A DNA stretch of 64,000 nt from Rhodocyclaceae bacterium (GTDB lineage: Bacteria; Pseudomonadota; Gammaproteobacteria; Burkholderiales; Rhodocyclaceae), in the NCBI GenBank assembly GCA_023150275.1, contig JAKLLG010000002.1:12511-76510 (forward strand), read 5' to 3'. Every line of letters begins with the position of its first letter. Position 1 is the first letter of the stretch. The position numbers and the translations under genes are program-made. Positions 28,683-47,216 of the stretch are shown here, one piece after another. The notes under the pieces are model-generated. The model saw only the letters and a list, made by a program, of their open reading frames with translations, had not been told where the DNA came from and made no database searches.

Positions 28683-28730
28683 ACGGCATCGCGATGTCAT
28701 TGCGATATTGCCCGAGGAGACTTGCCAAGA

Positions 28731-29146: not shown

Positions 29147-29170
29147 TACGAACGAACCAAGGAGATCTGT

Positions 29171-30226: not shown

Positions 30227-30268
30227 AGTGCCAATCGCATAAAAACAAACCGACTCCGGGGAGGTGTC

Positions 30269-30919: not shown

Positions 30920-30949
30920 CAAAACGAAAACTTACCGAAAGGGAAAGCA

Positions 30950-33052: not shown

Positions 33053-33631
33053 ATGGCCCGCGAACCCGAACTGCAGTGCTATTGCGGCCCGCGGCAGACG
33101 CTGGCCGTGACGGAGGAGGGCGGTCTGCGCCAGTGGCGCTGCCGGCGCTGCGGCGGCCGACGTTTCCTGCTCGCCGACTTTCGCCGGTGGCGCGAGCAGG
33201 GTGGTGCGCAGCAGCTTGCAGTCGGGTTGCCGGCTGCGGCGACGGAATACCACGAAACCCCATCTTCTCGCCTGTGCCAAAGCTGCGGGCTGATCATGGC
33301 GCGTTACCGGGTGGCCAGCGATCTGGCGTTCCACATTGACCGTTGCGCACCTTGTCAGTCGGTCTGGCTCGATGGCTGCGAGTGGGAAATCCTTGCCAGC
33401 CAGCAGTGGCTGGCACAACTCGACGAGATCATGTCAGATCGCTGGCAGAAACGTCTGCAGCAAAGCGAGGCCGACGCGCGGCGCGAGCAGACCCTGCGCG
33501 TCCGCTTTGGCGATGCCGAGTACGAGCGGTTGCGTGAAATCAGCCGCTGGCTCGCGCAGCAGGCGAAGCGACGGGAAATGCTGGCCTTTCTGAACGCCGA
33601 ACCCTCTGCCGGTGCGGAGCGCCTCCGATGA
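33053..33631 (+). CDS. protein with two zf-TFIIB-type zinc ribbons and a C-terminal coiled coil
   Basis: CYCGP...WRCRRCGGRRFLLADF and CQSCGL...IDRCAPCQSVWLDGCEWEIL both match the CxxC...CxxCxGxWxDxxE pattern. Confidence 0.6.
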   Translation: MAREPELQCYCGPRQTLAVTEEGGLRQWRCRRCGGRRFLLADFRRWREQGGAQQLAVGLPAAATEYHETPSSRLCQSCGLIMARYRVASDLAFHIDRCAPCQSVWLDGCEWEILASQQWLAQLDEIMSDRWQKRLQQSEADARREQTLRVRFGDAEYERLREISRWLAQQAKRREMLAFLNAEPSAGAERLR

Positions 33632-34605
33632 TCGTTCCGCAATACTGGGCCGAAGCCCGCATCCAGGAGCGCCGCGGAAACAGGCAGCTGACCGTGCGCC
33701 GCTTCGGCTGGTCCGAGCATAGCCAGGACGAAGCGCAGGCCAACGCCGAGGCGCGCGTGCGCACCGCGTTCGAGCGTATCGTCTCTGGTGAGAAGCTGCC
33801 CAGACACGAGCCGAAGGTCGCCTACAACGGCGCCGATGGCGTGCCTATCCGCGAAGAAGTACTGGCGCGCCATGGCGATGTCGTGATTACCCGGAATGCC
33901 TACGGCGCGAGTTGCCTCAATACACCGGACGTGCTGTTCGCCGATATCGATTTGCCCGCAACTTCCGCGGCGTCGCGGAAGTTGCTTGTCCATTTTGTCC
34001 TGCCCGGAATGGCGGCAATGGCCGGTTGGCTGACGCATTCGTGGCTTGTCTTTGCGCTGCTCGCCGTGGCGGCAACCGTTTTCGCCGGCACGGTCGCGAA
34101 GCGGCTAGACAGAAATCGCGGGCAACGCATGGAAACCGCCGGGTGTGCGGCCCGCCAGCGTGTCGCAGATTTCGTTGCGGCGCATCCTGACTGGCACGTG
34201 CGGCTCTACCAGACCCCGGCCGGTCTTCGTGCTCTGGTCATGCATCGTACTTTCGATGCCGACGAGCCCGCCGCGCAGGAGTTTTTTCGGGCACTGCACA
34301 GCGATCCGGTCTACGTGCGCATGTGCCGCAACCAGAAATGCTTCCGTGCCCGCGTCAGTCCCAAACCCTGGCGCGTCGGCATGATCCGGCATATCCGGCC
34401 GCGTCCCGGCGTGTGGCCGGTCAGGACCGAGCATCTGGCCCTGCGCCGGGAATGGATTGCCGAGTATGAAAACCGGGCCAGGAGCCACGCTTCCTGCCGC
34501 CTCATTGCAACTCTTGGTTCGCCGACGGTAGACCCCAAGGCGTTCGCCGTACAAACCCTGCATGACGAGTTGAGTCAGGCCGCTTCGTCACTGCCTCTTG
34601 CCTGA
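33628..34605 (+). CDS. hypothetical protein (325 aa, central hydrophobic segment)
   Basis: ATGA-coupled. One or two TM helices (LLVHFVLPGMAAMAGWLTHSWLVFALLAVAATVFAG). No recognisable motif. Confidence 0.5.
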   Translation: MIVPQYWAEARIQERRGNRQLTVRRFGWSEHSQDEAQANAEARVRTAFERIVSGEKLPRHEPKVAYNGADGVPIREEVLARHGDVVITRNAYGASCLNTPDVLFADIDLPATSAASRKLLVHFVLPGMAAMAGWLTHSWLVFALLAVAATVFAGTVAKRLDRNRGQRMETAGCAARQRVADFVAAHPDWHVRLYQTPAGLRALVMHRTFDADEPAAQEFFRALHSDPVYVRMCRNQKCFRARVSPKPWRVGMIRHIRPRPGVWPVRTEHLALRREWIAEYENRARSHASCRLIATLGSPTVDPKAFAVQTLHDELSQAASSLPLA

Positions 34606-34610
34606 ATGCC

Positions 34611-37600
34611 ATGAGCCAAACCGAAAACCCCGATGCCGTAGATGCCGCCGTTGCCGAAGGCGGCAGTTACGAACTGCTGAAAAAGCGCCTGCAGCTGCAG
34701 GGCGATGCGCTGGCCGGAAAGATCAGGCGGCTGAACGAGGATCGTCTGGCCGCGTTCGGCCGTTCCGACCTGCGTCTGCTCAGTCGCTTGCGCGCACGCA
34801 CCGAGAACAACTGTGTGGCGCGCGACATCGTCCGCGTCGGTGATCTGCTGGTCTTCGGCTACAACGTCTTCATGGGGCTGCGTCAGGAGATTCGCGCGGC
34901 CGACGTGTTCAGCCTGTATCGCCTCGGCGAAGGTGCCGGCAGTGAAGAACTGGAGCCGGTTGCGCTGGAAGGCAGTTTTCTCGCCGACCCGCGTTTCACC
35001 CTCGATTTCCGCGAGCTCTACACCTATTACAAGCAGGCCAGCCTGACGCAATTGCGGGTGCATCAGCACAAGCTGCTGGCTGCGTTCCAGATCGGGCCGC
35101 AACTGACCGACCTGCGCGTCTTCCGGTGGTCGATCGAGGCCGATGGCGGCCTCAAGTACATCGACAATCGCGGCGAACGCGACATCGCCCTGCCGGCCGC
35201 GCACGATTTTGAATGGTCGGTGAGCCGGCGCGAAGACCACGTCACCGGCAAGCATCCGCATGTGAATATCCTCGACACCATTTTTGTCGAGACCATCGGC
35301 GGCGATCTCACCGTCAAGATAGAGAACAATACCGAGAGCGGACTCGGCATCTACAGCGAGCCGGTGGAAGACAAGAACCAGTCGCTGGTCGATGCCGAGA
35401 TCTACCACGCCCGCCTGGGTTCGCTGATCCTGCTGCGCATCAAGCCCTACCGCGAAAGCGAATATCGCTACCTGGTCTACAACCACCGTACCCAGCATGT
35501 CGTTCGCATCGATGCCATCGGCCCCTCGTGCGTGCAGTTGCCGGAAGACCACGGCATCATTTTCCCGGGCGGTTACTACCTGCAATCCGGCGAATACAAG
35601 CGCTTCGATCTGCCGGCCGAGGCCATCGCCGGACTGCGCTTCAAGCGCATGCTGCGCTCGCCCAACGGCGAGGATGTGCTCTACGTGTTCTACCAGCCGG
35701 GCGGCGGGCAGTACGGCTTGTTTACCTACAACCTGATCGAAAAACGTCTGGGTACGCCGGTGCTTTCGAATGGCTACGCCCGCTTCGACGACGGCCGCAT
35801 GCTGGTCTTCCAGAGCGACGGCAGCGACCCCGTCCGCCTGCACCCGATGCAGTTGTGGCAAACCCCCTTCGTCAGCGACGACCATGCCGAGCGCCATGTC
35901 GATCGGCAGAGCTTCTTTGGCCGCATCGGCAACGCCGAGCTGGTGCGGGGTATCGCCGAATCGATGGAGATCAGCCGCGCCGTCGGCGAGCAGGCGCCGA
36001 CCCGCGTCGTCTACGAAGATATGCTCCGCCTTTGCGGGCGGGTACTGGACGGCTATTTCTGGCTGGACAGCGACGAGGCCGGCCACGCCGACGCCGATCT
36101 GCGCGCCATCGCCGGCACCGCACGGGCGGCGCTGGACGAGTTCGACAAGGTGGCGGCGATCCGGCGCGAGGCCTCGCGCCTTCTGGCCCAGGCCGAAGGC
36201 GAACAGCACGGCCTGCTGACCGACATCGCCGCCAGGCTCTGGCAACATCCGGACGATTTCGTTGCCATGCTCGACCGCCTGCGCCTGCAGCGCGGCCGCC
36301 TGCTCGGGCTGCGCGAACAGCGCTACATCGACCTTGCCCGAATCGAGGCTCTGGATCAGCAACTCGGCGAGGAGCAGAAGCGGGTCGGCGAAAAGACCCT
36401 TGTCTTCCTGCTCACCGACAAGGCATTCCAGCCCTACCAGGCGGCGCTAGCGGCCTGCGCCACGGCGATCGCCGCCGCCGCCACGACCGGCCAGCTCGAC
36501 GAACAGGGCAAGGGTCTGGAACAGACTGCGCATGCGCTCGACCTGCTCAACGACCTGGTCGCCAACCTGCCCGGCGGCGACGCGACCTCGCGGACCGCCA
36601 TCCTCGAACAGATTTCCGCGGTCTATGCCGAAACCAATCGCCTGCGTGCTGAGGTTCGCAACCGGCGCAAACAACTGGCCACCACCGAACTGGCCTCGGA
36701 ATTCGGCGCCCAGTTCAGGCTGCTCGGGCAGTCGGTGGAAAGCGCGCTGGAGCGCGTCGATACCCCGGAGCAATGCGACGACGCGCTGACCCGGCTGCTC
36801 GCGCAACTGGAAGAACTGGAAGGCCGTTTTGGCGAACAGGAGCAATTCGCCGCCGATCTCGACGAGAAGCGCGAATCGATCTACGAAGCGCTCACTGCGA
36901 AGAAGCAGCAACTGCTGGAAGTCCGTCAGCGCCGTACGCAGATCCTGCTCGATTCCGGTCAGCGCATTCTGGCCGGCGTACCGCGCCGCGTGCAGCAGTT
37001 TACGGTGCTCGACGAAGTCCATGCCTATTTTGCCGGCGACCCTCTGCTCGCCAAATGCCGCAGCATTTGCGACGAACTGCGCGGCATCGGGGCGCAGGTG
37101 CAGGCCGACGATCTCGACACTCGCCTCAAGACCGCCCGCGATCAGGCGCTGCGGGCGGTGCGCGATCGTTCCGAACTGCTCGCCGACGACGGCAACACCA
37201 TCCGCCTCGGCCGTCACGCCTTCACCGTCGGGCGCCAGGCGCTCGAACTGACGCTGGCGCCGAGCGGCGATGGCCTGGCCTACCACCTGACCGGTACCGA
37301 CTACCTGGTGCCCTTCGTGCATGACGAAGCGCAGCGCCTGCAGCCCTATTGGACGATGGCGCTGGTTTCCGAATCGCCGGCCTTCTATCGCGCCGAGTAT
37401 CTGGCCGGGGAAGTGCTGCTGGCGAGCCAGCGCGGCGAAATCGCCGCTTCGTTCGAGGCTCTGCAGGCCTTGTGCCTTGCCGCCGAAGGCGAGCGCGACG
37501 GCTTGCTCGCAGTCGTCCGCGATTTCTCGGCGAGCCGCTATCAGGAGGGCTACCAGAAAGGGGTGCATGACCACGACGCCGCAGCCATTCTCGCCGCACT

Positions 37601-39887
37601 GGTGCCGATGCAGGCGCACGCGGGGCGGCTGGCCTTCAGCCCGCGCGCCCGGGCTCTCGCCGCGCTCTACTGGCTGCAGGGCGTGCCGGCCATCGAGCGG
37701 CCGGGGCTGCAGCGGCAGGCAGCGAGTGCCGGCCAGATCCATGCGTTGTTCGGTGCCGGCCGCGTTCGCGAAGCGCTGGTCGTTCGCTGGCAGCCGGCCA
37801 TTGCCCGCTTTGCCGAGCGGGAGCAATTGCTGGCGCTATGGCAGACGGGTCCGGTGCTGGTCGATGAAGCGGCCGCTTATCTGGCCGAGGAGCTTGCCAG
37901 CGGCGGCGAATGGGTCGCCAGTGGCGCCGCACTGGATCTTGCAGAGGCCTTCACCCGCCATCTCGAACGGGCAAATCACCTGGGACGCTGGCGCGAGCAA
38001 TTGGCCGACTGTGTGCCGCTGGAATGCTGGCAACTGGCCCGCGACTGGGTCGAGAGCTACTGCGCCGCAGCTGCGCCGGAGGCAGCGGCGTGGAGCGACG
38101 AAGCAGCCGCCACCCTGGTGCTGGAATTGCCGCGGCAACGCCACAACGCCGGCTTGAGCGTGACGGTCGGCGGGTTGCGCGGCGAACACCCGCGCGTCGT
38201 CAATGGAGAACTGGCGCTCAATCTCAACGATTTCCATCTGCGGGCGCGTACCCACCGGCAGGAGATCGTTCCCGGGGTTCTGCGCTGGCACGCCTTGCGC
38301 CAGGAACTGGTGGCGAGCGAAAAGGCGCGCCTGAGCCTTGAACAGTTCCAGGCCAAACCGCTCTCCAGTTTCGTGCGCAATCACCTGATCGATGAGGTCT
38401 ATCTGCCGCTGGTCGGCGACAACCTCGCCAAGCAGATCGGTGCCGCCGGCGACAGCAAGCGCACCGACCGCATGGGCATGCTGCTGCTGATTTCGCCGCC
38501 GGGCTATGGCAAGACGACGTTGATGGAATACATCGCCGACCGTCTGGGCCTGATATTCGTGCGCATCAACTGCCCGGCGCTGGGCCACGACGTCGTCTCG
38601 CTCGACCCCGACAAGGCGCCGCACAGCGGCGCCCGGCAGGAACTGGAGAAGCTGAACCTCGGCCTGGCGATGGGCAACAACGTCATGCTGTACCTCGACG
38701 ATATCCAGCACACTCACCCGGAGTTCCTGCAGAAGTTCATCGCGCTGTGCGACGGAACCCGCCGCATCGAGGGCGTCTGGCAGGGGCGGCCTCGCAGCTA
38801 CGATCTGCGCGGCAAGCGCTTTGCGGTGGTGATGGCCGGCAATCCGTATACCGAATCGGGCGAGGCTTTCAGGATTCCCGACATGCTTGCCAACCGCGCC
38901 GACATCTACAACCTCGGCGACGTACTCTCCGGCCGCGAAGCGGCCTTCGCGCTTTCCTACATCGAGAACAGCCTGACCGCCAACCCGGCGCTGATGCCGC
39001 TGGCGACGCGCGATCCCAAGGATATCGACCGTCTGGTCAAGCTGGCACAGGGGCACGACATCCCGGCCAGCGAGTTTGCACACGGCTACAGCGCGGCCGA
39101 ACTGAGCGAGCTGACCGCCATCCTGCAACGCCTGTTCACCGTTCGCGACGTGCTGCTCAAGGTCAACCTCGCCTACATCCAGTCCGCCGCGCAAGAAGAC
39201 GACTACCGTACCGAACCGCCGTTCAAGCTGCAGGGCAGCTATCGCAACATGGCCAAGCTCGCGGCCAAGGTCACCGCGATCATGGATCCGCAGGAGCTGG
39301 ACAACCTGCTGCGCGACCACTACCGCGGCGAAGCGCAGACCCTGACCACCGGCGCCGAGGAGAATCTGCTCAAGCTGGCGATGCTGATCGGCACGCCGAC
39401 GGCCGATGAAACGCGGCGTTGGCAGGCGATCTGCGAGGACTACCGCCGCTTCAAGAAACTCGGCGGCGCCGAGAGCGACGGCGCCACGCGGGTCGCCAAC
39501 CTGCTCGCCGACATCGGGGTGACTCTGGATGGGCTGAGGCAGCAACTTGCGAGTCCTGTACCGGGAACTCCCGATTGGCCTGCGGAGCTAGGGTCGCTAC
39601 GCAACACCATTGCTGCGATCAAACCCCAGGTGACAGTCGATGTCGCCGAGTCGCCGGCAATCGCCGCCATCGTTGACCGCCTGGCAGAGACCTACGAAAA
39701 GGGGATTGCGCCGCTGGTCAATGCGACCTATCACAAACTCAAGCTCGATCATGACATGTGGGAACGTCTGCGCGACATGGCGAAGGACATCAAGCGCCTG
39801 GACGCAGCGCTTGAACAAGCCGATTCACCAAAACCCGCGCCCAAGCCGCGCAAAACCGGAGGCAGCCATGAGCAAGGAAAGTCGTGA
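34611..39887 (+). CDS. 1758-aa multidomain protein with C-terminal AAA+ (AAA_5/MoxR/McrB-like) ATPase domain
   Basis: Walker A LLISPPGYGKTTL (nt ~38490-38520). Walker B NVMLYLDDIQH. Sensor/arginine region VVMAGNPYTESGEAFRIPDMLANRADIY. Precedes these with a beta-rich N-terminal domain and an ~800-aa helical region. Confidence 0.8.
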   Translation: MSQTENPDAVDAAVAEGGSYELLKKRLQLQGDALAGKIRRLNEDRLAAFGRSDLRLLSRLRARTENNCVARDIVRVGDLLVFGYNVFMGLRQEIRAADVFSLYRLGEGAGSEELEPVALEGSFLADPRFTLDFRELYTYYKQASLTQLRVHQHKLLAAFQIGPQLTDLRVFRWSIEADGGLKYIDNRGERDIALPAAHDFEWSVSRREDHVTGKHPHVNILDTIFVETIGGDLTVKIENNTESGLGIYSEPVEDKNQSLVDAEIYHARLGSLILLRIKPYRESEYRYLVYNHRTQHVVRIDAIGPSCVQLPEDHGIIFPGGYYLQSGEYKRFDLPAEAIAGLRFKRMLRSPNGEDVLYVFYQPGGGQYGLFTYNLIEKRLGTPVLSNGYARFDDGRMLVFQSDGSDPVRLHPMQLWQTPFVSDDHAERHVDRQSFFGRIGNAELVRGIAESMEISRAVGEQAPTRVVYEDMLRLCGRVLDGYFWLDSDEAGHADADLRAIAGTARAALDEFDKVAAIRREASRLLAQAEGEQHGLLTDIAARLWQHPDDFVAMLDRLRLQRGRLLGLREQRYIDLARIEALDQQLGEEQKRVGEKTLVFLLTDKAFQPYQAALAACATAIAAAATTGQLDEQGKGLEQTAHALDLLNDLVANLPGGDATSRTAILEQISAVYAETNRLRAEVRNRRKQLATTELASEFGAQFRLLGQSVESALERVDTPEQCDDALTRLLAQLEELEGRFGEQEQFAADLDEKRESIYEALTAKKQQLLEVRQRRTQILLDSGQRILAGVPRRVQQFTVLDEVHAYFAGDPLLAKCRSICDELRGIGAQVQADDLDTRLKTARDQALRAVRDRSELLADDGNTIRLGRHAFTVGRQALELTLAPSGDGLAYHLTGTDYLVPFVHDEAQRLQPYWTMALVSESPAFYRAEYLAGEVLLASQRGEIAASFEALQALCLAAEGERDGLLAVVRDFSASRYQEGYQKGVHDHDAAAILAALVPMQAHAGRLAFSPRARALAALYWLQGVPAIERPGLQRQAASAGQIHALFGAGRVREALVVRWQPAIARFAEREQLLALWQTGPVLVDEAAAYLAEELASGGEWVASGAALDLAEAFTRHLERANHLGRWREQLADCVPLECWQLARDWVESYCAAAAPEAAAWSDEAAATLVLELPRQRHNAGLSVTVGGLRGEHPRVVNGELALNLNDFHLRARTHRQEIVPGVLRWHALRQELVASEKARLSLEQFQAKPLSSFVRNHLIDEVYLPLVGDNLAKQIGAAGDSKRTDRMGMLLLISPPGYGKTTLMEYIADRLGLIFVRINCPALGHDVVSLDPDKAPHSGARQELEKLNLGLAMGNNVMLYLDDIQHTHPEFLQKFIALCDGTRRIEGVWQGRPRSYDLRGKRFAVVMAGNPYTESGEAFRIPDMLANRADIYNLGDVLSGREAAFALSYIENSLTANPALMPLATRDPKDIDRLVKLAQGHDIPASEFAHGYSAAELSELTAILQRLFTVRDVLLKVNLAYIQSAAQEDDYRTEPPFKLQGSYRNMAKLAAKVTAIMDPQELDNLLRDHYRGEAQTLTTGAEENLLKLAMLIGTPTADETRRWQAICEDYRRFKKLGGAESDGATRVANLLADIGVTLDGLRQQLASPVPGTPDWPAELGSLRNTIAAIKPQVTVDVAESPAIAAIVDRLAETYEKGIAPLVNATYHKLKLDHDMWERLRDMAKDIKRLDAALEQADSPKPAPKPRKTGGSHEQGKS

Positions 39888-40104
39888 TTATCTGGAAATG
39901 AGCTTTCGCTCCATTCAGTGTTTCACTGACGATGGAAGATTGATGCCGGAAGAACTGCAACGCATTGCCGACATCGCCTTGCGCGACGGCGTGGTCGATG
40001 CGAACGAAAAGCGCGTGCTGGCGAGCATCATCGGCAAGCTGACGAAGGAGGAACTGACGCCTTCCATGCAGACTAAGCTAACCGAACTTGCGAAGTACAT
40101 TTGA
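39868..40104 (+). CDS. small TerB-like domain protein
   Basis: ATG with GGAGG RBS. Overlaps the giant gene's 3' end by 20 nt. TDDGRLMPEELQRIADIALRDGVVDANEKRVLASII matches the TerB acidic-repeat pattern (DG.vd..E...L..I). Confidence 0.55.
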   Translation: MSKESRDYLEMSFRSIQCFTDDGRLMPEELQRIADIALRDGVVDANEKRVLASIIGKLTKEELTPSMQTKLTELAKYI

Positions 40105-40137
40105 GCGCGTTTCCGTGTACCGGAAATCGACCGCAGG

Positions 40138-40209
40138 TGGATGGCGGGTTGAAAAGAAGCCCGACATCTCGCACCTCGAAGCGCTAAATCAGCTCGATAC
40201 CGAGGGTAA
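40138..40209 (+). pseudogene. diverged partial duplicate of the 5' end of the purB-downstream gene (28219-28290)
   Basis: ~80% nucleotide identity over ~70 nt (…catctcgcacctcgaagcgct…ctcgat.ccga.ggta…). The encoded KKPDISHLEALNQLDTEGNVA corresponds to KKMPGISHLEALNLLDADGSVVA. Confidence 0.5.
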
Positions 40210-40439
40210 TGTAGCCATTTCAGCCCATCGTCTGCCGCTGTCAGCAGTTCGCCAACTTGCCGGTGTAGCGCTATTTCATTCCAAACGTTTGCTATGGCCG
40301 GTAAGCCAAGGTAAGCCGAAGTTCGAGAGCCGCCTCCTTGTTAATGCTAAATGCATTTTCCAAGGGGTGGTTGCGGAAAGGGGGGCGTTCTCATGGGCTG
40401 CCGAGTGCATACCATCAGGCTTTTTGTTGGAACCTTACC

Positions 40440-40472
40440 GTGCAAATTCTCCAAATAAGTGATAATTTGCAC
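40440..40472 (+). promoter_or_regulatory. inverted repeat GTGCAAATT-N15-AATTTGCAC abutting the start of the DUF4143 ATPase gene
   Basis: Perfect 9-bp arms in an AT-rich (~45% GC) patch at 40290-40474. Ends 2 nt before the ATG at 40475. Confidence 0.45.
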
Positions 40473-40474
40473 GG

Positions 40475-41656
40475 ATGAATCCTCGTTCAGCACAATCCGA
40501 TCTCGCCCGATTGCTATCGGAATTTCCGGCTGTCGTTCTGCTGGGGCCGCGTCAGGCTGGCAAGACGACGCTGGCGCTCGCCGAAGCCGGGCGGCGCGGC
40601 GACGCTCTGTATCTCGACCTTGAGCTGCCGTCGGCGCAGCGCCAGCTCGACGATCCCGAGGCCTTTCTGCTGGCGCATCCAAAGCGCTTGGTCATTCTTG
40701 ATGAGGTGCAGCGCATTCCGGAACTGTTCGCCATCCTGCGCGGTGTCATCGACCTGCGTCGGCGGGCGGGCGAGGCCGCCGGCCAGTTCCTGCTGCTCGG
40801 CTCCGCTTCCGGGGTGTTGCTGCAGCAGGCCAGCGAAAGCCTGGCTGGCCGGGTGGCGCAACTTGAACTGACGCCGTTTCAGGCGCGGGAAGTGATCGCG
40901 CCGGAAAGCGACGACATGCTCCGCTCGCTCAACGCGCTTTGGGTGCGGGGCGGTTTTCCGCTGGCCTGGCTGGCCGGCGACGATGCTGCCAGCCTGCGCT
41001 GGCGCGAGGCTTTCATTGCCACTTATCTGGAGCGGGACATCCCGGCGCTCGGCCCGCGCATTCCCGCGACGACCTTGCGCCGGTTGTGGACGATGCTGGC
41101 GCACGCGCAGGGCGGCCTGCTCAACCAGTCGCAACTGGCGGCCTCGCTGGCCGTCAGCGGGCAGACGGTGGCGCGCTACATCGATCTGCTCTGCGATCTG
41201 ATGCTCGTGCGCCGCCTGCCGGCCTGGCACGGCAATGTCGGCAAGCGGCTGGTGCGTGCGCCCAAGGTGTACGTGCGCGACAGCGGCCTCGTTCATGCCT
41301 TGCTCGGCCTTGCCGATCTGGACGCGATACTGTCGCACCCGGTTGCCGGTGCCAGTTGGGAGGGCTTCGTCGTCGAGCAGTTGCTGGCTGCGGCGCCGGA
41401 GGCGGAAGCGAGTTTCTATCGCACCTCGCACGGTGCCGAAGCCGATCTGGTGTTGACGTTGCGAAACGGGGATGTCTGGGTGGTCGAGATCAAGCGTTCC
41501 TCGGCGCCCACGGTGTCGAAGGGGTTTCATCTGGCGGCGGTCGATGTCGGCGCCAGCCGCAAGCTGCTGGTGGCGCCGGTGGCGAGCACCTATCCGCTGC
41601 GCGAGGGGATCGAGGTAATGAATCCGCTGGCGGCGGCGAAGTTGCTCGCCGGGTAA
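40475..41656 (+). CDS. AAA+ ATPase with C-terminal DUF4143 (COG1373 family)
   Basis: Walker A GPRQAGKTTL and Walker B LVILDEVQ. The C-terminal GASWEGFVVEQL is typical of the DUF4143 family. Confidence 0.75.
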   Translation: MNPRSAQSDLARLLSEFPAVVLLGPRQAGKTTLALAEAGRRGDALYLDLELPSAQRQLDDPEAFLLAHPKRLVILDEVQRIPELFAILRGVIDLRRRAGEAAGQFLLLGSASGVLLQQASESLAGRVAQLELTPFQAREVIAPESDDMLRSLNALWVRGGFPLAWLAGDDAASLRWREAFIATYLERDIPALGPRIPATTLRRLWTMLAHAQGGLLNQSQLAASLAVSGQTVARYIDLLCDLMLVRRLPAWHGNVGKRLVRAPKVYVRDSGLVHALLGLADLDAILSHPVAGASWEGFVVEQLLAAAPEAEASFYRTSHGAEADLVLTLRNGDVWVVEIKRSSAPTVSKGFHLAAVDVGASRKLLVAPVASTYPLREGIEVMNPLAAAKLLAG

Positions 41657-41681
41657 GCGCGTTTGCTCGGGGGCGTGCGGC

Positions 41682-42989
41682 TTATACCGCCCGCTTGTCA
41701 ATCACCCGCCGCGCCTTGCCCTCCGGCCTGGGCAGATGTCCCGGATCGAGAATGCTGACGCGCGTGGTGACGCCGAGCCAGCCCTTGATCTCGTGCTGCA
41801 GCCCCTTTGCCGCGTTCTGCTTCATCTCGGTGCTGGCATGCGCAAATTCCGGCTTCACTTCGACCAGTACTTCCATCTGGTCGAGCGGACCTTCGCGGTA
41901 GACCTCCAGCAGGTAGTGGCCGGAGAGTTGCGGCTGCTTGAGGATCAGTTCCTCGATGTGGCCGGGGAAGAGGTTCACGCCGCGGATGATCAACATGTCG
42001 TCGGAGCGGCCGGTAATCTTGCTCATGCGCCGGAACGAGCGCGCAGTGGGCGGCAGCAGGCGGGCGAGGTCGCGCGTGCGGTAGCGGATGACCGGCAGCG
42101 CTTCCTTGGTCAGCGAGGTGAACACCAGTTCGCCGAGTTCGCCGTCGGGCAGCACTTCGCCGGTTTCGGGGTGGATGATCTCGGGGTAGAAGTGGTCTTC
42201 CCAGATTACCGGGCCGTCTTTCGCTTCGATGCATTCGCAGGCGACGCCGGGGCCGATCACTTCCGAGAGGCCGTAGAGATCCATCGCGTCGATGCCGAGT
42301 CGCGTCTGGATCTCGCTACGCATGCCTTCGCCCCACGGTTCGGCGCCGAAGCAGCCGATGCGCAGGCTGCAGGCGGCGGGGTCCATGCCTTGGCGCACGA
42401 ATTCGTCGGCGATGTTGAGTGCGTAGGAGGGCGTGGCGACGATCATCGTCGGCTTGAAGTCGCGAATCAACTGAACTTGCTTGGCGGTCTGGCCGCCGCC
42501 CATCGGGATGACCGTGCAGCCGAGGCGTTCGGCGCCGTAATGGACACCGAAGCCGCCGGTGAACAGGCCGTAGGCGTGAGCGATCTGTACGATGTCGTCG
42601 GGGCCGGCGCCAGCCGCGTGCAGTGAGCGCGCCATCAGATTGGCCCACATGTCGATGTCGTTCTTCGTATAGCCGACTACCGTCTGCTTGCCGGTGGTGC
42701 CGGAGGAGGCGTGGATGCGTACGATATCCCGCATCGGCACGGCGAGCATGCCGTAAGGGTAGTTGTTGCGCAGATCCTGCTTGTTGGTGAACGGAAAGCG
42801 GGCCAGATCGGCGAGACTCTTCAACTCGTCCGGATGAACACCCGCGGCATCGAATTTCTCCCTGTAGGTCGCAACGTTGGCATAGGCATGGGCAAGCGTT
42901 GTTTTCATCCGCGCGAGCTGCAGCGCTGCAATTTCATCGCGGCTGGCACGTTCGATCGGTTCAAACAGGGAGCTGGTTTGGGCAGACAT
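41682..42989 (-). CDS. paaK: phenylacetate--CoA ligase
   Basis: Near-collinear match to E. coli PaaK from memory (PIERASRDEIAALQ..., SSGTTGKQTVVGYT, IRYRTRDL). ATG at 42989; the GTG at 43001 gives a 4-aa extension. Confidence 0.85.
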   Translation of the reverse strand: MSAQTSSLFEPIERASRDEIAALQLARMKTTLAHAYANVATYREKFDAAGVHPDELKSLADLARFPFTNKQDLRNNYPYGMLAVPMRDIVRIHASSGTTGKQTVVGYTKNDIDMWANLMARSLHAAGAGPDDIVQIAHAYGLFTGGFGVHYGAERLGCTVIPMGGGQTAKQVQLIRDFKPTMIVATPSYALNIADEFVRQGMDPAACSLRIGCFGAEPWGEGMRSEIQTRLGIDAMDLYGLSEVIGPGVACECIEAKDGPVIWEDHFYPEIIHPETGEVLPDGELGELVFTSLTKEALPVIRYRTRDLARLLPPTARSFRRMSKITGRSDDMLIIRGVNLFPGHIEELILKQPQLSGHYLLEVYREGPLDQMEVLVEVKPEFAHASTEMKQNAAKGLQHEIKGWLGVTTRVSILDPGHLPRPEGKARRVIDKRAV

Positions 42990-43190
42990 TGGCGCATTCA
43001 CGGGGCAATCAAGCGGCTGATGCTAATGGCGAGTTTACTGGTGTCGATATGAGATGGATCAATTTCCGGTCTATCAGGAAACGGCAGACCTACTGGCCAG
43101 CGCTGCCGTTCGCGACGGGGCGGGAGCGCGATTATGAGCGGCGCGCTACCGCGAGCGGCATTTCTGATGATTATTACGGTACGCGAATCT

Positions 43191-45422
43191 TCAGCTGTTG
43201 TCGTGCAGCCATTTTCCGATATCGTCGGCACCCATCGGGCGCGCAAAGTAGTAGCCCTGTGCTTCGTGGCAGCCGAGGGCGCGCAGCAACTCGAGCTGCC
43301 GGACATCCTCCACGCCTTCGGCGATCAGCGCCATGTTCAGCTTGTGTCCGAGCGCAATGATCATCTCGGTGATACGCGCGCCTTCCTCGCCATTGCCGAT
43401 ATTGGCGACGAAGGAGCGGTCGATCTTGAGGCGATCGATCGGCAGGCGGTCGAGGTATGAAAGCGAGGAGAAGCCGGTTCCGAAATCGTCGATGGCGATG
43501 GTGACGCCGAGTGCCTTCAGCGCCTGCAGCTTGACTTCGACTTCGGCGGCGTTGGCCATGGCCACGGATTCGGTGATTTCGAGTTCGACCCGTGCCGCGG
43601 GAACACCGGTTTCGCGGATGGCAGCAGCAACGCTGTCGATGAAATCCTCGGCCTGGAACTGCACGACGGAGACGTTGATCGCCATGCGTAGTCCCTGCCA
43701 TCCGGCCTCCGCTAAACGATGCAGCGTGCGCAGGGCCGAACGCATGATCCAGCGCCCCATGCCGTTGATCAGTCCGGATTGCTCGGCCAGCGGGATGAAG
43801 CGGTCTGGCGGAATGAAATCGCCTTTGTCGTCGCGCCAGCGCATCAAGGCCTCGAAGCCGAGCGGCTTGCCAGTCTGCGCATCCACTTGCGGTTGATAGG
43901 CGACGAAAAGTCGCTCGTGCTGGAATGCGGCATGCAGGCTGTGCAGCAGATGCGTTCGTTCGCGGGTTTCCAGGCCGATTTCTTCGGTGTAGACCGCATC
44001 TCGTCCGGGACCTTCGGTGCGCGCGAGCTTGACGGCGAGGCTCGCGTTCTTGATTGCATCATTGCCGCTGCGTACTTCTGCGAGGTGCGCGAAGCCCATG
44101 CTTATCGAGAGCTGGTGAAGCACTTCATCGTCGATGAGCAGCGGTTCGGAGAGCAGGGGCCGCAGCTTCTCCGGCCGTACGGCCCAGGAGAGTCCGAGTA
44201 CGCCAAAGGTGTCGCCAGAGATGCGGGCAATGCGGCACGATTCTCCGAGCGCGCCGTCGAGCCGCTGGGCAACGCCGCGCAGCACGGCATCGCCATAGCC
44301 ATGGCCGAAGGTTTCGTTGGTTTCGGCGAACTGGTCGATGTCGATGAGGCCGACGGTATAGCCTGCTGTCGTTCCGGTCTGGATGTGTTCATCGATGGCC
44401 TCGATGAAGGCGGTACGTGTCGGCAGTCTGACCAGTCGATCGAGGTAGGCCTGATCGTGCAGGCGGGCCAGCAGGCGGGTGTTTTCGGCACAGACTGCGA
44501 TATTCGAGCAGAACACCTGCAGCAGGTGCTGGTCGATTTCCGAGAGCAGTGCAGGCGAATCAATGAAGGCCGCGAAATGGTTGCCGCTGCGTGCGGGGAA
44601 GAAAAGCGCGACGGCGTCGTTTTCTATCAGGTTGGTCTTTTGCGACAGGCAGCGGCACAGGGCCCCGCGAACGCGCTCGCTGTCGATTTCCTCAAGCTTT
44701 CGCTGGACCAGCCCGGCGAAGCGGCCGGCCGCCGCCACGACGACGATGATCGGTTCACGGCCTTCCTTTCCTTCGCTGTCGGTGGGTTGTTCTTGTGCGC
44801 AGACCAGCCCCTCGGCGCCGACGCCGAGCAGCGCCGCAATCTGGGTAATGATGCCGGCTGCGAAGGCCTGCAGGCCGTTCTCGGCAACCAGCCGTCCGCT
44901 CGCGGCGACGATCAGTTCGAGGCCGCGCCGGCTCGCATCAAGTTTGCATATCTGATCGTAGGAGCGGATTGCCGCCGTGACCGAGGTGTAGAGCCGCGTC
45001 CGTGTGAGCTCGTTCTTGGTCTTGTAGTCGTTGATGTCGTAGTCGCGGATGGCCGACAGCTCGGGGGCATAGCCCGGCTGGCCGGTGCGCAGGATGATGC
45101 GCGGCGTAGTCAGCTGCATATGCTTGCGGATATGCTCGACGAGGCGTAGCCCTGCATCCTCGCTTTCCATGACCACATCGAGGAGGATGACCGCAATGTT
45201 GTCTTCCTGCGCCAGCAGCGATTCTGCCTCGCGGGCCGAGTAGGCATGCAGGAAGATGAGCGGATGTCCGAGGATCTCCAGCCCCTGCAGTGCGAACGTC
45301 GTCGCCTGGTGCACGTCTTCATCGTCATCGACGATGAGGATCTTGCGGGTGTGGACCGCAACCGCAGTGAGCGGCGATTCGCGCTCGTCCGCGAAGGTCA
45401 GGAGATCGTCATCGCTTTGCAT
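43191..45422 (-). CDS. response regulator REC-(GAF-like)-GGDEF(degenerate SGDTF)-EAL
   Basis: Receiver ILIVDDDEDVH...ILLDVVME. RISGDTFGV replaces RxGGDEF. The EAL domain has GFEALMRW and DDFGTGFSSLSYL intact. Confidence 0.85.
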   Translation of the reverse strand: MQSDDDLLTFADERESPLTAVAVHTRKILIVDDDEDVHQATTFALQGLEILGHPLIFLHAYSAREAESLLAQEDNIAVILLDVVMESEDAGLRLVEHIRKHMQLTTPRIILRTGQPGYAPELSAIRDYDINDYKTKNELTRTRLYTSVTAAIRSYDQICKLDASRRGLELIVAASGRLVAENGLQAFAAGIITQIAALLGVGAEGLVCAQEQPTDSEGKEGREPIIVVVAAAGRFAGLVQRKLEEIDSERVRGALCRCLSQKTNLIENDAVALFFPARSGNHFAAFIDSPALLSEIDQHLLQVFCSNIAVCAENTRLLARLHDQAYLDRLVRLPTRTAFIEAIDEHIQTGTTAGYTVGLIDIDQFAETNETFGHGYGDAVLRGVAQRLDGALGESCRIARISGDTFGVLGLSWAVRPEKLRPLLSEPLLIDDEVLHQLSISMGFAHLAEVRSGNDAIKNASLAVKLARTEGPGRDAVYTEEIGLETRERTHLLHSLHAAFQHERLFVAYQPQVDAQTGKPLGFEALMRWRDDKGDFIPPDRFIPLAEQSGLINGMGRWIMRSALRTLHRLAEAGWQGLRMAINVSVVQFQAEDFIDSVAAAIRETGVPAARVELEITESVAMANAAEVEVKLQALKALGVTIAIDDFGTGFSSLSYLDRLPIDRLKIDRSFVANIGNGEEGARITEMIIALGHKLNMALIAEGVEDVRQLELLRALGCHEAQGYYFARPMGADDIGKWLHDNS

Positions 45423-45503: not shown

Positions 45504-46205
45504 CTACCAGGCCGGGGTCGAACTCGGCGGCGGTGGCGGAGGGGCTGGCAGCCAGATGCCGGATGCGCCCCAGGCAGCGCCTGTCCCGATGATCGCGGCA
45601 GCGATGAAGGCGACGATGCCGCCCCCGCTGGCCGGGCGCCCGGCGTGCTCCTTCCAGCCGGTCAGCATTGGCTTCACCAGATTGTCCTTTTTCACGCGGG
45701 CATAGAAGACAATCGCCGCGACATGCAGCACGATCAGGGCGATCAACAGATTCGTCATCAGCTTGTGCAGGCCGGTCGCCCGGTCCGAGAGCGTCTTGCC
45801 GACAAGTTCGAAGAGCGGGCCGCGGAAGGCGATGTCATCGTTGCCGATGAGGCCGGTCGCGAGTTGCAGCACGATGAGCCCGAGTAGTCCGAAAACCGAC
45901 AGCGCACCGAGCGGGTTGTGTCCCGGTGTGGACCACTCGCCTCGCAGGTAGGCACGCAGTCGATACGGCGTCGGGAAAAAACTCGCGAAGCGGGCATAGG
46001 TGGAGCCGGCAAAGCCCCAGACGATCCGGAATGCGATCAGCGCGACCAGCGCCAGCCCGATGCGGCCGTGCCAGTCGATCAGGTTGCCGCCAACCTTGCC
46101 GGTGACGATCATGGCCGCGATCAGAAGCACGAGCACCCAATGGAAGATTCGGGTGGGCAGGTCCCAGACCCGGATACGGGGATGTGTCAAAGTTGTGTCC
46201 TCCAC
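45504..46205 (-). CDS. cytochrome b561 / Ni-Fe hydrogenase b-type cytochrome family protein
   Basis: Four TM helices with conserved His residues (RIFHWVLVLL, HKLMTNLLIALIVLHV). GTG start. Confidence 0.7.
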   Translation of the reverse strand: MEDTTLTHPRIRVWDLPTRIFHWVLVLLIAAMIVTGKVGGNLIDWHGRIGLALVALIAFRIVWGFAGSTYARFASFFPTPYRLRAYLRGEWSTPGHNPLGALSVFGLLGLIVLQLATGLIGNDDIAFRGPLFELVGKTLSDRATGLHKLMTNLLIALIVLHVAAIVFYARVKKDNLVKPMLTGWKEHAGRPASGGGIVAFIAAAIIGTGAAWGASGIWLPAPPPPPPSSTPAW

Positions 46206-46268
46206 AAAGCAAAAGGCGGGAAGGTTGCCCTTGCCCGCCTCGTTTCGACCGAACCTGCCTGCAGGGGT

Positions 46269-47216
46269 TCAGACCACCGCACCATCCTCGTTCGCACCTT
46301 CGACCTGCTTCTTCGCGGGCTTGATGAATTGTTCGCGCGAAACGCCCAGCCACATGACCAGCGGCGAGGCTACCAGCACCGACGAATAGATGCCGAAGCA
46401 GATGCCGATGGTCAATGCCAGCGAGAAATAGTAGAGCGTCTCGCCGCCGAAGATCAGCATCGACAACACCATCAACTGCGTCGAACCGTGGGTGATGATC
46501 GTCCGGCTGATCGTGCTGGTGATGGCGTGATCGAGCACCTGCGGCGTGGAGAGGCCGCGCACCTTCCTGAAGGTTTCGCGCACGCGGTCGAAGACGACTA
46601 CCGATTCGTTCACCGAATAGCCGAGCACCGCGAGCACCGCGGCCAGCACCGACAGCGAGAACTCCCACTGGAAGAAGGCGAAGAAACCGAGAATGATGAT
46701 CACGTCGTGCAGGTTGGCGATGATCGCCGACACCGAGAAGCGCCATTCGAAGCGGAAGGCCAGGTAGATCATGATGCCGAGCACGACCACCAGCAGCGCC
46801 AGCGCGCCGTTCTCGGCAAGTTCCTTGCCCACCTGCGGGCCGACGAATTCCACGCGCTGCAGCGTCGCGCCGGGGGCGCCCTCGCTCAGCGCCGTCATCA
46901 CCGATTCGCCCATGCGCGCGGTGTTCTGCTCGGCCTTCAGCGGCAGGCGGATGAGCACGTCACGCGAGGAGCCGAAATTCTGCACCGCGAAATCGCTGTA
47001 GCCGGCCTTGCCGAGCGCACCGCGCACCTTTTCAAGCTCGGCGGCCTGCTGGTAGCTGACTTCCACCAGCGTGCCGCCAGTGAATTCCACCGAAAGGTGC
47101 AGACCGCGCGTGGCGAGGAAAAACACCGCGAGCAGGAAGGTGATCAAGGAGATGATGTTGAACTTCAGCGCATGGCGCATGAAGGGGATGTCTTTTCTGA
47201 TGCGGAAGAATTCCAT
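46269..47216 (-). CDS. secF: protein translocase subunit SecF
   Basis: MEFFRIRKDIPFMRHALKFNIISLITFLLAVFF. Conserved SecF. Confidence 0.9.
   Translation of the reverse strand: MEFFRIRKDIPFMRHALKFNIISLITFLLAVFFLATRGLHLSVEFTGGTLVEVSYQQAAELEKVRGALGKAGYSDFAVQNFGSSRDVLIRLPLKAEQNTARMGESVMTALSEGAPGATLQRVEFVGPQVGKELAENGALALLVVVLGIMIYLAFRFEWRFSVSAIIANLHDVIIILGFFAFFQWEFSLSVLAAVLAVLGYSVNESVVVFDRVRETFRKVRGLSTPQVLDHAITSTISRTIITHGSTQLMVLSMLIFGGETLYYFSLALTIGICFGIYSSVLVASPLVMWLGVSREQFIKPAKKQVEGANEDGAVV

What the first reader, a model, noticed from the sequence alone, without database searches (positions are those of the whole stretch)
40138..40209. Diverged direct repeat of the purB-downstream gene's 5' end marks the distal edge of the operon block
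About 70 nt at 40138-40209 are ~80% identical to 28219-28290 and encode the same peptide segment (ISHLEALN.LD..G.V.A). Duplicated gene fragments flanking an insertion suggest island integration by recombination at this gene. The fragment sits in a 124-codon ORF (40088-40462) that runs into an AT-rich tail and is probably non-functional.
Basis: seen in the sequence. Interest (0 to 1): 0.6.

Follow-up and report, generated by a model that had tools for sequence, protein, structure and literature searches.

The report
Leftover gene fragment at recombination junction
A decayed 21-24-codon copy of the start of a small conserved gene (DUF2322) sits exactly where an imported stress-response operon meets the next imported gene, so it is an ordinary recombination scar in a highly variable chromosome spot, not a working gene or a classical integration site.

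Summary
The repeat is real. Window 40152-40208 matches 28223-28279 at 50/57 nt (BLAST E 2.5e-15), offset 11,929.

It is a relic of codons ~9-31 of the DUF2322 gene that follows purB. Homology stops sharply on both sides. Its changes hit residues invariant in 120 homologues and fall as often on codon position 2 as on position 3. The 124-codon ORF around it is frame-broken in other strains and has no real homologues.

The block between the copies, a DUF2170-PspA-flotillin-DUF3686 ATPase operon, is an insertion:
- Relatives have purB-DUF2322 followed by cyt c'/cyt b561/secF or by paaK.
- The operon occurs elsewhere in unrelated contexts, with the same left edge (28638).
- In a 94%-identical operon copy, homology to the window ends at 40149, exactly where the fragment begins.

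The simple "duplicated target of island integration" model fails:
- There is no recombinase.
- The left copy lies inside an intact gene, 360 nt before the operon border.
- The right copy is not followed by the rest of the gene.
- The insert relative to the nearest empty site runs on to 41679 and includes a DUF4143/PDC-S01 ATPase.

Most likely this is a scar of an illegitimate (HFIR-like) join at a hypervariable locus, truncated later. It is ordinary and of low interest.

The parts
26812..28188 (+). purB (adenylosuccinate lyase), the conserved left flank
   Evidence: Pfam Lyase_1 + ASL_C. 87% aa identity to purB of relative L102.
28198..28518 (+). Intact DUF2322 gene (copy A), 106 aa
   Evidence: Pfam PF10084, E 3.6e-40, full length. 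Follows purB in every relative for which the upstream gene could be identified.
28223..28279 (+). Repeat copy A (codons 9-27 of DUF2322)
   Evidence: the repeat finder D17; BLAST.
28529..28568 (+). Intrinsic terminator of DUF2322 (18-pair stem plus T-rich tail)
   Evidence: Terminator scan.
28638..28729 (+). Left edge of the operon module. It holds two palindromic 13-mers (GACATAATATGTC / GACATATTATGTC) overlapping a TTGACA-N17-TATAAA promoter-like site.
   Evidence: Homology to the operon copies in L112 and L113 (different genomic context) starts at 28638/28639. The motif was read from the sequence.
28730..40104 (+). Nine-gene operon. DUF2170 28730-29146; PspA/IM30 29172-29888; p113 29885-30226; p216 30269-30919; SPFH/flotillin 30950-33052; p192 33053-33631; p325 33628-34605; DUF3686 AAA ATPase 34611-39887; p78 39868-40104.
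   Evidence: Pfam. Conserved gene order in 80 genome loci. Absent at this site in relatives.
40105..40149 (+). 45-nt tail after the operon, shared with relative L109. Homology to L109 ends at 40149.
   Evidence: blastn and alignment.
40150..40212 (+). Copy B: relic of DUF2322 codons ~9-30 (pseudogene fragment)
   Evidence: Present only in conspecific contigs.
40088..40462 (+). 124-codon ORF containing B; not a gene
   Evidence: Frame broken by a 1-nt (G-run 40380-40385) and a 10-nt (40300-40309) indel in otherwise identical conspecific contigs. No Pfam hit. Only a repeat-protein artefact hit among 1.8 billion proteins. Not annotated in the MAG.
40213..40436 (.). Orphan non-coding stretch, GC 0.53, no match to anything fetched
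   Evidence: blastn against all 193 loci; composition.
40437..41679 (+). DUF4143/AAA_14 ATPase module (gene 40475-41656), with a conserved upstream inverted repeat CCGTGCAAATT..AATTTGCACGG. It is a PADLOC candidate defence gene, PDC-S01.
   Evidence: Pfam. PADLOC E 3.7e-89. 80 metagenome homologue loci in unrelated contexts, with upstream homology only from ~40437.
41682..43001 (-). paaK (phenylacetate-CoA ligase). Homology to the empty-site relative L106 resumes at 41680.
   Evidence: NCBIfam TIGR02155; blastn L106.
43191..45422 (-). Response-regulator-GGDEF-EAL gene
   Evidence: ORF. 77% nt / 75% aa identity to the gene that directly follows the operon in L109.
45504..47216 (-). cyt b561 (45504-46205) and secF (46272-47216). 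This is where conserved synteny resumes (secD, yajC, tgt, queA follow to 51707).
   Evidence: tblastn with L102 genes.

Best explanation
Copy B (40150-40212) is a dead remnant of a second DUF2322 copy. It is a scar left at an illegitimate recombination join, and it has no present function.

The stretch between DUF2322 and secF is a hypervariable, mosaic locus in this Rhodocyclaceae clade. In the window it holds at least two cargo modules that also occur elsewhere in unrelated contexts:
- the DUF2170-PspA-flotillin-DUF3686 operon (28638-40104, plus a 45-nt tail);
- a DUF4143/PDC-S01 ATPase (40437-41679).

The most likely history has two steps.
1. DNA was exchanged between an operon-bearing lineage (like L109: operon-tail-GGDEF/EAL-secF) and a paaK-bearing lineage (like L106: DUF2322-spacer-paaK). 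One crossover was in homologous flanking genes. The other was an illegitimate join that fused the end of the operon tail (40149) to about codon 9 of a DUF2322 copy. This is homology-facilitated illegitimate recombination or an equivalent event. It left an intact DUF2322 (A) in front of the operon and a start-less, promoter-less copy behind it.
2. The redundant copy was later cut off after codon ~31 by a second event that brought or left the orphan stretch and the DUF4143 module. It has since decayed neutrally.

Shown:
- B is a DUF2322 fragment.
- It has sharp breakpoints on both sides.
- It decays neutrally.
- It coincides with the L109 homology breakpoint.
- Both neighbouring modules are mobile.
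- Relatives carry empty sites.

Inferred:
- The HFIR-type mechanism.
- The direction of transfer.
- The order of the two events.
For: B is a DUF2322 fragment:
- It matches profile positions 8-31 only.
- The match has BLAST E 2.5e-15.
- Identity drops to 18-20% immediately outside it.

Neutral decay:
- Eight B-specific changes lie in 63 nt. They include K9E, M/L11K, G13D, L22Q and V30A at positions that are invariant or nearly so in 120 homologues.
- A-B differences by codon position are 1/5/5. Functional orthologue pairs give 3/1/36 and 4/4/31.
- The surrounding ORF is frame-shifted in conspecific contigs.
- The ORF has no homologues.

B is not a fresh copy of A:
- B keeps GAG..AAT at codons 26 and 28, as L106 and L107 do, where A has the derived GAC..AGC.
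- B also shares the clade-specific E18 and L20 with A.

Junction:
- L109-L111 are 93.8% identical to the window through p78 and the tail, up to 40149. They then diverge.
- After the divergence they continue with GGDEF-EAL (77% nt) and secF (89%). They have no B, DUF4143, paaK or cyt b561.

Mobility of the modules:
- None of 80 genome loci with the operon has DUF2322 or purB nearby.
- In L112/L108 and L113 the operon follows an SSF transporter gene, and in L108 a Na/Ca exchanger gene lies downstream. Homology to the window starts at 28638/9.
- None of 80 DUF4143 loci has DUF2322.

Empty sites:
- L106 has DUF2322, 690 unrelated nt, then the paaK 3' end. Homology to the window spans 28140-28521 and resumes at 41680.
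- The P0003 contig and P. limicola have DUF2322-secF. Others have DUF2322-cyt c'-cyt b561-secF.

Partial copy: it is seen only in the window's own species.

Mechanism precedent: HFIR has been proposed to leave orphaned gene pieces behind newly inserted modules (PMC5361080; PMC3240628).
Against: - No intermediate genome was found, neither one with operon-tail-full second DUF2322 nor one with a DUF2322 truncated by the orphan/DUF4143 segment.
L109 as the 'ancestral' state is therefore an assumption.
- Microhomology at the join is only about 2 nt (..GGTG|C.. in L109..CCTG|A.. in A..GTTG|A.. in the window). This is weak evidence either way.
- The scenario needs two events: the join, then a later truncation.
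- The identity pattern between the window and L109 (operon 94%, secF 89%, GGDEF-EAL 77%) fits transfer in either direction. It could also reflect different evolutionary rates.
- An in-situ tandem duplication followed by deletion predicts the same final sequence.
Confidence: 0.5

Rival explanations
1. In-situ tandem duplication. A segment running from DUF2322 codon ~9 to the end of the operon tail was duplicated head-to-tail. Almost all of the second copy was then deleted, from codon ~32 onward. This left B right after the first operon copy. The orphan stretch and DUF4143 arrived separately.
For: - The tail|codon-9 junction is what a tandem-duplication join looks like.
- Once its private changes are removed, B is closest to A. 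It shows 3 differences in 63 nt to A, against 6 to L107 and 8-9 to L106 (hand count on the codon listing).
- The 3 changes on the A branch and 8 on the B branch fit a constrained copy beside a neutral copy of the same age.
Against: - It needs a duplication of about 12 kb, then a large deletion, then an unrelated insertion, all at the same spot.
- It does not by itself explain why homology to L109 stops exactly at the start of B, unless the later deletion also removed the sequence that followed the operon.
- It does not explain the much lower identity of the GGDEF-EAL gene to L109 (77% against 94% for the operon).
Confidence: 0.22
2. The two copies are the duplicated attachment or target sequence of an island (the operon) that integrated by site-specific or Campbell-type recombination within DUF2322.
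For: - Direct repeats bracket the operon.
- The operon is absent from this site in relatives and is found elsewhere with constant ends.
- The two copies share a 21-nt identical core.
Against: - No integrase, recombinase or transposase domain is present in any ORF from 28.5 to 45.5 kb. No tRNA is nearby.
- The left repeat lies 360 nt inside the flank. An intact gene 3' part and a terminator separate it from the module border at 28638.
- Campbell or site-specific integration predicts that the right copy continues into the gene's 3' part. Instead, identity falls to 18%.
- L109 carries the same operon end without any DUF2322 fragment.
- The operon copies in L112/L108 and L113 have no DUF2322-like sequence at either end.
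- The repeats are 12% diverged, with changes on both branches.
Confidence: 0.1
3. B, or the ORF 40088-40462, is functional. It might be a small protein, a leader or regulatory element for the DUF4143 gene, or a structured 3' UTR of the operon.
For: - No terminator was detected between p78 and B, so B is probably transcribed with the operon.
- The 381-nt region folds better than shuffles (z = -4.0).
- B is 100% conserved among conspecific contigs.
Against: - The conspecific contigs are nearly identical everywhere, so this conservation is uninformative. The only differences in the region are frame-breaking indels.
- There is no Rfam match and no Pfam match. No real homologue was found.
- The folding signal comes largely from hairpins outside B, namely 40110-40128 and the DUF4143 upstream inverted repeat at 40440-40472.
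- B is absent from the nearest operon-bearing relative.
- The replacements are at invariant DUF2322 residues.
Confidence: 0.03

Closest known systems
Orphaned gene fragments left by homology-facilitated illegitimate recombination (HFIR). Examples are displaced effector 3' ends and orphan immunity genes in Vibrio cholerae T6SS clusters and in Rhs/CDI loci (Kirchberger et al. 2017, PMC5361080). HFIR itself was described in Acinetobacter, S. pneumoniae and P. stutzeri (references 41, 42 and 47 therein) and in E. coli conjugation (PMC3240628).
   Same: - A new module sits next to a conserved anchor gene.
- A piece of a conserved gene is pushed to the far side of the module.
- No mobile-element machinery is present.
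- The locus is mosaic among close relatives.
   Different: - Here the relic is the 5' part of the anchor gene, truncated on both sides, rather than a 3' end plus an immunity gene.
- The cargo is a stress-response operon and a candidate defence gene, not toxin modules.
- The mechanism is inferred from sequence only.
att-site duplications flanking integrase-borne genomic islands and prophages, for example a duplicated tRNA 3' end (established knowledge).
   Same: Direct repeats derived from a chromosomal gene bracket horizontally acquired DNA.
   Different: - There is no integrase.
- The repeats are diverged, not near-identical.
- The left repeat is not at the island border.
- The gene part duplicated is the 5' region, and it is not reconstituted on the right side.
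Remnants of tandem duplications (duplication followed by partial deletion), a common source of short pseudogene fragments in bacterial genomes (established knowledge).
   Same: A short, same-orientation partial copy lies a few kb downstream of the parent gene and decays neutrally.
   Different: The sequence after the fragment is unrelated to what follows the parent. Comparison with relatives points to exchange between lineages.

Membership tests
DUF2322 (PF10084) gene family | Full-length match to the ~99-106-residue profile | tested here: not met
   Copy B matches profile positions 8-31 only, at 9.1 bits. Copy A matches 1-106. B is a fragment of a family member, not a member gene.
DUF2322 (PF10084) gene family | Conservation of invariant residues (K9, P12, G13, S15, H16, L22, D24, ...) | tested here: not met
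   B has K9E, G13D, L22Q and V30A, states absent from 120 homologues. A-B differences by codon position are 1/5/5.
Integrase-mediated genomic island with att repeats | Tyrosine or serine recombinase (or transposase) encoded in the island | tested here: not met
   Pfam and NCBIfam scans of the main ORFs from 28.7 to 43.0 kb found no recombinase domain.
Integrase-mediated genomic island with att repeats | Direct repeats located exactly at both island borders | tested here: not met
   The right repeat abuts the operon tail. The left repeat (28223-28279) lies 360 nt before the module border at 28638.
Integrase-mediated genomic island with att repeats | Target gene reconstituted at one junction, so that the displaced copy continues into native flank | tested here: not met
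   After codon ~31 of B, identity to DUF2322 falls to 18%. No profile match lies beyond position 31.
Integrase-mediated genomic island with att repeats | Integration next to a tRNA or tmRNA gene (frequent, not obligatory) | tested here: not met
   The only tRNA in the window is tRNA-Leu at 51824-51908.
Transposon target-site duplication | Short (2-15 bp) identical direct repeats next to terminal inverted repeats, plus a transposase | tested here: not met
   The repeat is about 60 nt and 12% diverged. There is no transposase. No terminal inverted repeat pair of the operon was reported.
HFIR / illegitimate-recombination scar | The fragment boundary coincides with a homology breakpoint between related genomes | tested here: met
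   Window-L109 homology ends at 40149 and B homology begins at 40149-40152.
HFIR / illegitimate-recombination scar | Conserved anchor genes flank a segment that differs among close relatives | tested here: met
   purB-DUF2322 on the left and secF-secD-yajC-tgt-queA on the right are syntenic in relatives. The content between them differs in L102, L103, L105, L106, L107, L109 and the window.
HFIR / illegitimate-recombination scar | Microhomology (3-10 nt) at the illegitimate join | tested here: inconclusive
   Only about 2 nt (TG) are shared at the join among L109, copy A and the window.
HFIR / illegitimate-recombination scar | Direct demonstration of the event (donor and recipient genomes, or an experiment) | not testable with these tools
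   Context look-ups were exhausted. No intermediate genome was recovered.

The most novel reading that the evidence does not exclude
The DUF2170-PspA-flotillin-DUF3686 operon is a recombinase-less mobile cassette with fixed ends, from the palindromic promoter at 28638 to the tail end at 40149. It is moved by a host-encoded site-specific activity. On this reading the conserved 21-nt core in the DUF2322 5' region (CATCTCGCACCTCGAAGCGCT) is a recognised recombination site, and B would be a true attachment-site remnant of a new kind of mobile unit.
Probability: 0.05. Interest if true: 0.5.

Novelty: new member of a known kind. Interest (0 to 1): 0.18.

Why it matters
The fragment has little importance in itself. 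It is one more pseudogene scar of the kind that recombination leaves in variable chromosome regions.

Its use is as a marker:
- It pins one junction to within about 2 nt in a mosaic locus between purB-DUF2322 and secF in Azospira/Proximibacter-like Rhodocyclaceae.
- It indicates that the 11.5-kb PspA-flotillin-DUF3686 operon and a candidate defence ATPase (PDC-S01) arrived as separate modules without mobile-element genes.
- It gives a rough relative age. Neutral divergence on the B branch is about 13%, against 31-37% four-fold-site divergence between sister lineages.

It also warns annotators that the 124-codon ORF is not a gene.

Tried and rejected
- **Chance similarity:** rejected (E 2.5e-15; shuffles reach at most 32/57).
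- **A real ORF at 40088-40462:** rejected. There is no Pfam hit. Frame-breaking indels occur in conspecific contigs. The only hit among 1.8 billion representatives is a 710-aa tandem-repeat protein matched in 9 weak stretches, which is an artefact. The ORF is not annotated in the MAG.
- **A structured RNA:** no Rfam match at E <= 1. The folding z-score of -4 stems mainly from hairpins outside B.
- **Residual DUF2322 homology beyond codon 31 or before codon 8:** none was found, by DNA alignment or by profile search of the six-frame translation.
- **A full-length second copy or another partial copy in relatives:** a profile search of all 193 fetched loci found partial copies only in the window's own species.
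- **DUF2322 or purB next to the operon elsewhere:** 0 of 80 genome loci.
- **DUF2322 next to DUF4143 ATPase homologues:** 0 of 80 metagenome loci.
- **Origin of the orphan stretch 40213-40436 and of the spacers at 28519-28640, 43002-43190 and 45423-45503:** no match outside the species.
- **Relic of the cyt c' gene that follows DUF2322 in several relatives:** no tblastn hit in the window.
- **Integrase or tRNA as island hallmarks:** none found.
- **Literature on DUF2322 and DUF3686:** no papers in the library.
- **One script comparison (purB window vs L107) was mis-registered** and is disregarded.

Full report
**1. The observation**

The repeat is real. The repeat finder lists 28223-28279 and 40152-40208 as a two-copy direct family: 57 nt, 88% identical, spacing 11,929.
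- BLAST gives E = 2.5e-15 for this pair.
- The 57-mer scores 50/57, while 200 block shuffles of the window never exceed 32/57.
- Extended as far as similarity goes, the repeat is 40149-40212 vs 28220-28283 (53/64, 83%), with a 21-nt identical core.
- In the 60 nt on either side identity is 18-20%, so the homology has sharp ends.

**2. What the two copies are**

The left copy lies in a 106-codon gene at 28198-28518, directly after purB (26812-28188). The gene is a full-length DUF2322 (PF10084, E 3.6e-40) and ends in a strong terminator (28529-28568).

I built a profile from 120 homologues and searched the six-frame translation of the whole window. It finds that gene, plus one more match: frame +1, 40148-40219, profile positions 8-31 only. 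Copy B is therefore about 24 codons of the 5' part of a DUF2322 gene. It has no start codon of its own and none of the remaining 75 codons.

**3. B is dead**

Residue evidence:
- Over the 23 residues compared, B shares the clade-specific states E18 and L20 with A. Only 8 and 14 of the 120 homologues have these.
- B also carries K9E, M/L11K, G13D, L22Q and V30A at positions that are invariant or nearly so in those homologues.

Codon-position evidence:
- A-B differences are spread 1/5/5 over codon positions 1/2/3.
- The functional orthologue pairs A-L106 and A-L107 give 3/1/36 and 4/4/31.

Evidence on the surrounding ORF (40088-40462, TTG start overlapping the stop of the preceding gene):
- It has no Pfam match.
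- Seven contigs of the same species from other samples, compared here, are otherwise 100% identical in this stretch. One carries a 10-nt deletion (40300-40309, one unit of a ggtaagccra tandem repeat). Three carry an extra G in the run at 40380-40385. Both changes break the frame.
- A full HMMER pass over 1.84 billion representative proteins returns one hit. It is a 710-aa tandem-repeat protein matched in nine weak stretches, which I regard as an artefact.
- The window comes from a Rhodocyclaceae MAG. Its annotation runs from MCK6404884 (p78) straight to MCK6404885 (DUF4143 ATPase), with nothing called in between.
- No Rfam family matches at E <= 1.

**4. What lies between and beyond the copies**

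Between the copies is a nine-gene operon on the + strand (Pfam):

| Gene | Coordinates |
|---|---|
| DUF2170 | 28730-29146 |
| PspA/IM30 | 29172-29888 |
| p113 | 29885-30226 |
| p216 | 30269-30919 |
| SPFH/flotillin (700 aa) | 30950-33052 |
| p192 | 33053-33631 |
| p325 | 33628-34605 |
| DUF3686/DUF7902/AAA ATPase (1758 aa) | 34611-39887 |
| p78 (TerB-like by source names) | 39868-40104 |

After B come:
- 224 nt of lower-GC orphan sequence;
- a DUF4143/AAA_14 ATPase (40475-41656), which matches the PADLOC candidate defence family PDC-S01 at E 3.7e-89;
- paaK on the minus strand (41682-43001);
- a response-regulator-GGDEF-EAL gene (43191-45422, -);
- cyt b561 (45504-46205, -);
- secF, secD, yajC, tgt and queA (46272-51707, -).

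**5. Comparison with relatives: empty sites**

DUF2322 homologues of 78-96% identity come from Propionivibrio, Azospira, Proximibacter-like and unnamed Rhodocyclaceae. Wherever the upstream gene could be identified, the gene follows purB. The downstream content varies:
- P. limicola, and the contig of P0003 (90% identical protein): DUF2322 then secF(-).
- L096-L102: DUF2322, cyt c', cyt b561(-), secF(-).
- L103: the same, with an extra PAS-GGDEF-EAL gene.
- L107 (91% nt identity): unrelated sequence right after the stop codon.
- L106 (protein 96%, DNA 86%): DUF2322, 690 nt of unrelated AT-rich sequence, then the 3' end of paaK.

For L106, homology to the window covers 28140-28521 and resumes at 41680. 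Relative to the nearest empty site, the window's insert is therefore 28522-41679. It contains the operon, B, the orphan stretch and the DUF4143 gene. The fragment marks the distal edge of the operon, but not of the inserted DNA.

**6. The operon and the ATPase are independent, portable modules**

The operon:
- A scan of one genome per species found the operon, in the same gene order, in Beta- and Gammaproteobacteria (at most 68% identity of the large ATPase). None of the best 80 loci, which were the ones examined, has DUF2322 or purB within 10 kb.
- Closer copies (82-88% nt) lie on a 20.8-kb contig (L108/L112) and on L113. There the operon follows an SSF transporter gene, and in L108 a Na/Ca exchanger gene lies downstream.
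- Homology to the window starts at 28638/28639 in both. That point is a pair of palindromic 13-mers overlapping a TTGACA-N17-TATAAA promoter-like site. In L108, homology ends at the p78 stop.

The DUF4143 ATPase:
- Its homologues in 80 metagenome loci (up to 85% aa identity) never sit near DUF2322.
- Upstream homology reaches only to ~40437, a conserved inverted repeat.

**7. The key junction**

Three contigs, L109-L111, have p78 at 96% aa identity and the operon 3' end at 93.8% nt identity.
- They match the window through p78 and a further 45 nt, up to 40149, and then diverge.
- They continue with 110 unrelated nt, a GGDEF-EAL gene (77% nt, 75% aa to the window's) and secF (89%).
- They have no B, DUF4143, paaK or cyt b561.

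B homology starts at 40149-40152. The fragment therefore begins, to within about 2 nt, exactly where two operon-bearing lineages stop being collinear. A profile search of all 193 fetched loci finds the partial DUF2322 copy only in contigs of the window's own species.

**8. Age and source of B**

Polarising the A-B differences with L106, L107 and more distant orthologues:
- Eight changes fall on the B branch.
- Three fall on the A branch: codon 26 GAG>GAC and codon 28 AAT>AGC.
- B keeps the state seen in the nearest relatives at those codons.

With its private changes removed, B is closest to A. It shows 3 differences in 63 nt, against 6 to L107 and 8-9 to L106 (my count from the listing). B therefore derives either from an early version of A or from a very close sister lineage. 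It is not a recent copy.

The B branch is about 13% diverged. Four-fold-site divergence between A and L106/L107 is 31-37%. That makes B roughly two-thirds as old as those lineage splits. This estimate is very rough, since it rests on 63 nt.

**9. Mechanism**

A classical island-integration model is not supported:
- No recombinase or transposase domain occurs in the ORFs scanned across the region.
- No tRNA lies nearby.
- The left repeat lies inside an intact gene, 360 nt before the module border. The gene's 3' two-thirds and its terminator lie in between.
- The right repeat does not continue into the gene's 3' part, as Campbell or site-specific integration predicts.
- Other copies of the operon have no DUF2322-like sequence at their ends.

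The explanation I favour (about 0.5) is a one-sided homologous plus illegitimate join, that is, homology-facilitated illegitimate recombination or an equivalent. It would have occurred between an operon-bearing lineage (L109-like) and a paaK-bearing lineage (L106-like). It fused the operon tail to about codon 9 of a DUF2322 copy. The redundant start-less copy was later truncated after codon ~31, in the event associated with the orphan stretch and the DUF4143 module.

HFIR is documented as a route by which non-homologous DNA enters next to a homologous anchor. It has been proposed to explain orphaned gene pieces behind newly inserted modules in T6SS and Rhs loci (PMC5361080; PMC3240628).

What remains unsettled:
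- The direction of transfer cannot be decided from the data I could fetch.
- Microhomology at the join is only about 2 nt.
- An in-situ tandem duplication followed by deletion (about 0.2) gives the same end product.

That B is a non-functional scar, rather than an att site or a gene, I hold at about 0.9.

**10. Verdict**

The operon is acquired, the fragment marks its distal edge, and the ORF is non-functional. But the fragment is not the duplicated target of an island integration, and the acquired DNA extends past it.
- The feature is an ordinary pseudogene relic at a recombination junction in a hypervariable locus. Interest is low (0.18).

Noticed in passing
window 28638-28700: Two perfect palindromic 13-mers (GACATAATATGTC, TT, GACATATTATGTC) overlap a TTGACA-N17-TATAAA promoter-like site upstream of the DUF2170-PspA operon. 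Homology to operon copies in other genomic contexts (L112, L113) begins exactly here, so this likely operator/promoter travels with the operon.
   Followed up: partly
window 33628-34605: Operon gene p325 has no Pfam or NCBIfam match and no tblastn hit in any of the 80 genome loci that carry the operon. It is present only in the closest copies (for example a 315-aa gene in L108/L112). It is a lineage-specific addition to a widespread PspA-flotillin-DUF3686 operon.
   Followed up: partly
window 40437-41679: The DUF4143/AAA_14 ATPase matches the PADLOC candidate single-gene defence family PDC-S01 (E 3.7e-89). It has a conserved upstream inverted repeat (CCGTGCAAATT..AATTTGCACGG, ~40440-40472) shared with homologues in unrelated metagenome contexts.
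   Followed up: partly
window 40300-40309 and 40380-40385: The only differences among otherwise identical conspecific contigs in this region are two indels. One is a 10-nt deletion of one unit of a ggtaagccra tandem repeat (L011). The other is a +1 G in a G6 run (L007, L014, L015).
   Followed up: yes
protein P0065 (ENA contig of 1251 nt, not fetched): A DUF2322 homologue that is 95% identical to copy A over about 88 residues but ends in 21 unrelated residues (..NIDRLIDIEAGRLAPLTVRLQPAAAA). This may be another rearrangement breakpoint inside this gene in a close relative.
   Followed up: no
window 28278 (nt 81 of the DUF2322 gene): A synonymous polymorphism at codon 27. It is GGT in the window, L002 and L005, and GGC in L001, L003 and L004, as in L106 and L107. 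Copy B has GGT. It could be coincidence or a micro gene-conversion from B to A.
   Followed up: no
L103 2398-4647; L109 1107-3326; window 43191-45422: Different GGDEF-EAL signalling genes occupy the DUF2322-secF interval in different relatives. Their position relative to cyt b561 varies, and identity between the window and L109 versions is only 77% nt. The whole interval is a recombination hot spot.
   Followed up: partly
window 8093-8635 vs 9363-9896 (and weaker 43243-43328, 44823-44885): Several repeat families (D1, D3, D8, D12) with spacing of 1261-1270 nt indicate two tandem paralogous genes at about 8-10 kb. They are distantly related to part of the GGDEF-EAL gene at 43-45 kb.
   Followed up: no
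window 58753-58826 and 59571-59644: An 81%-identical 74-nt repeat. Its reverse complement reads as VPEPETYAMLLAGLGLMGSVARRR, a PEP-CTERM-like sorting signal. This suggests two neighbouring PEP-CTERM proteins on the minus strand (read from the sequence only).
   Followed up: no
window 16485-19652: Repeat families D2 and D11 show 2-4 related copies spaced about 0.4-1.6 kb apart. This is consistent with a cluster of paralogous response-regulator-type genes.
   Followed up: no
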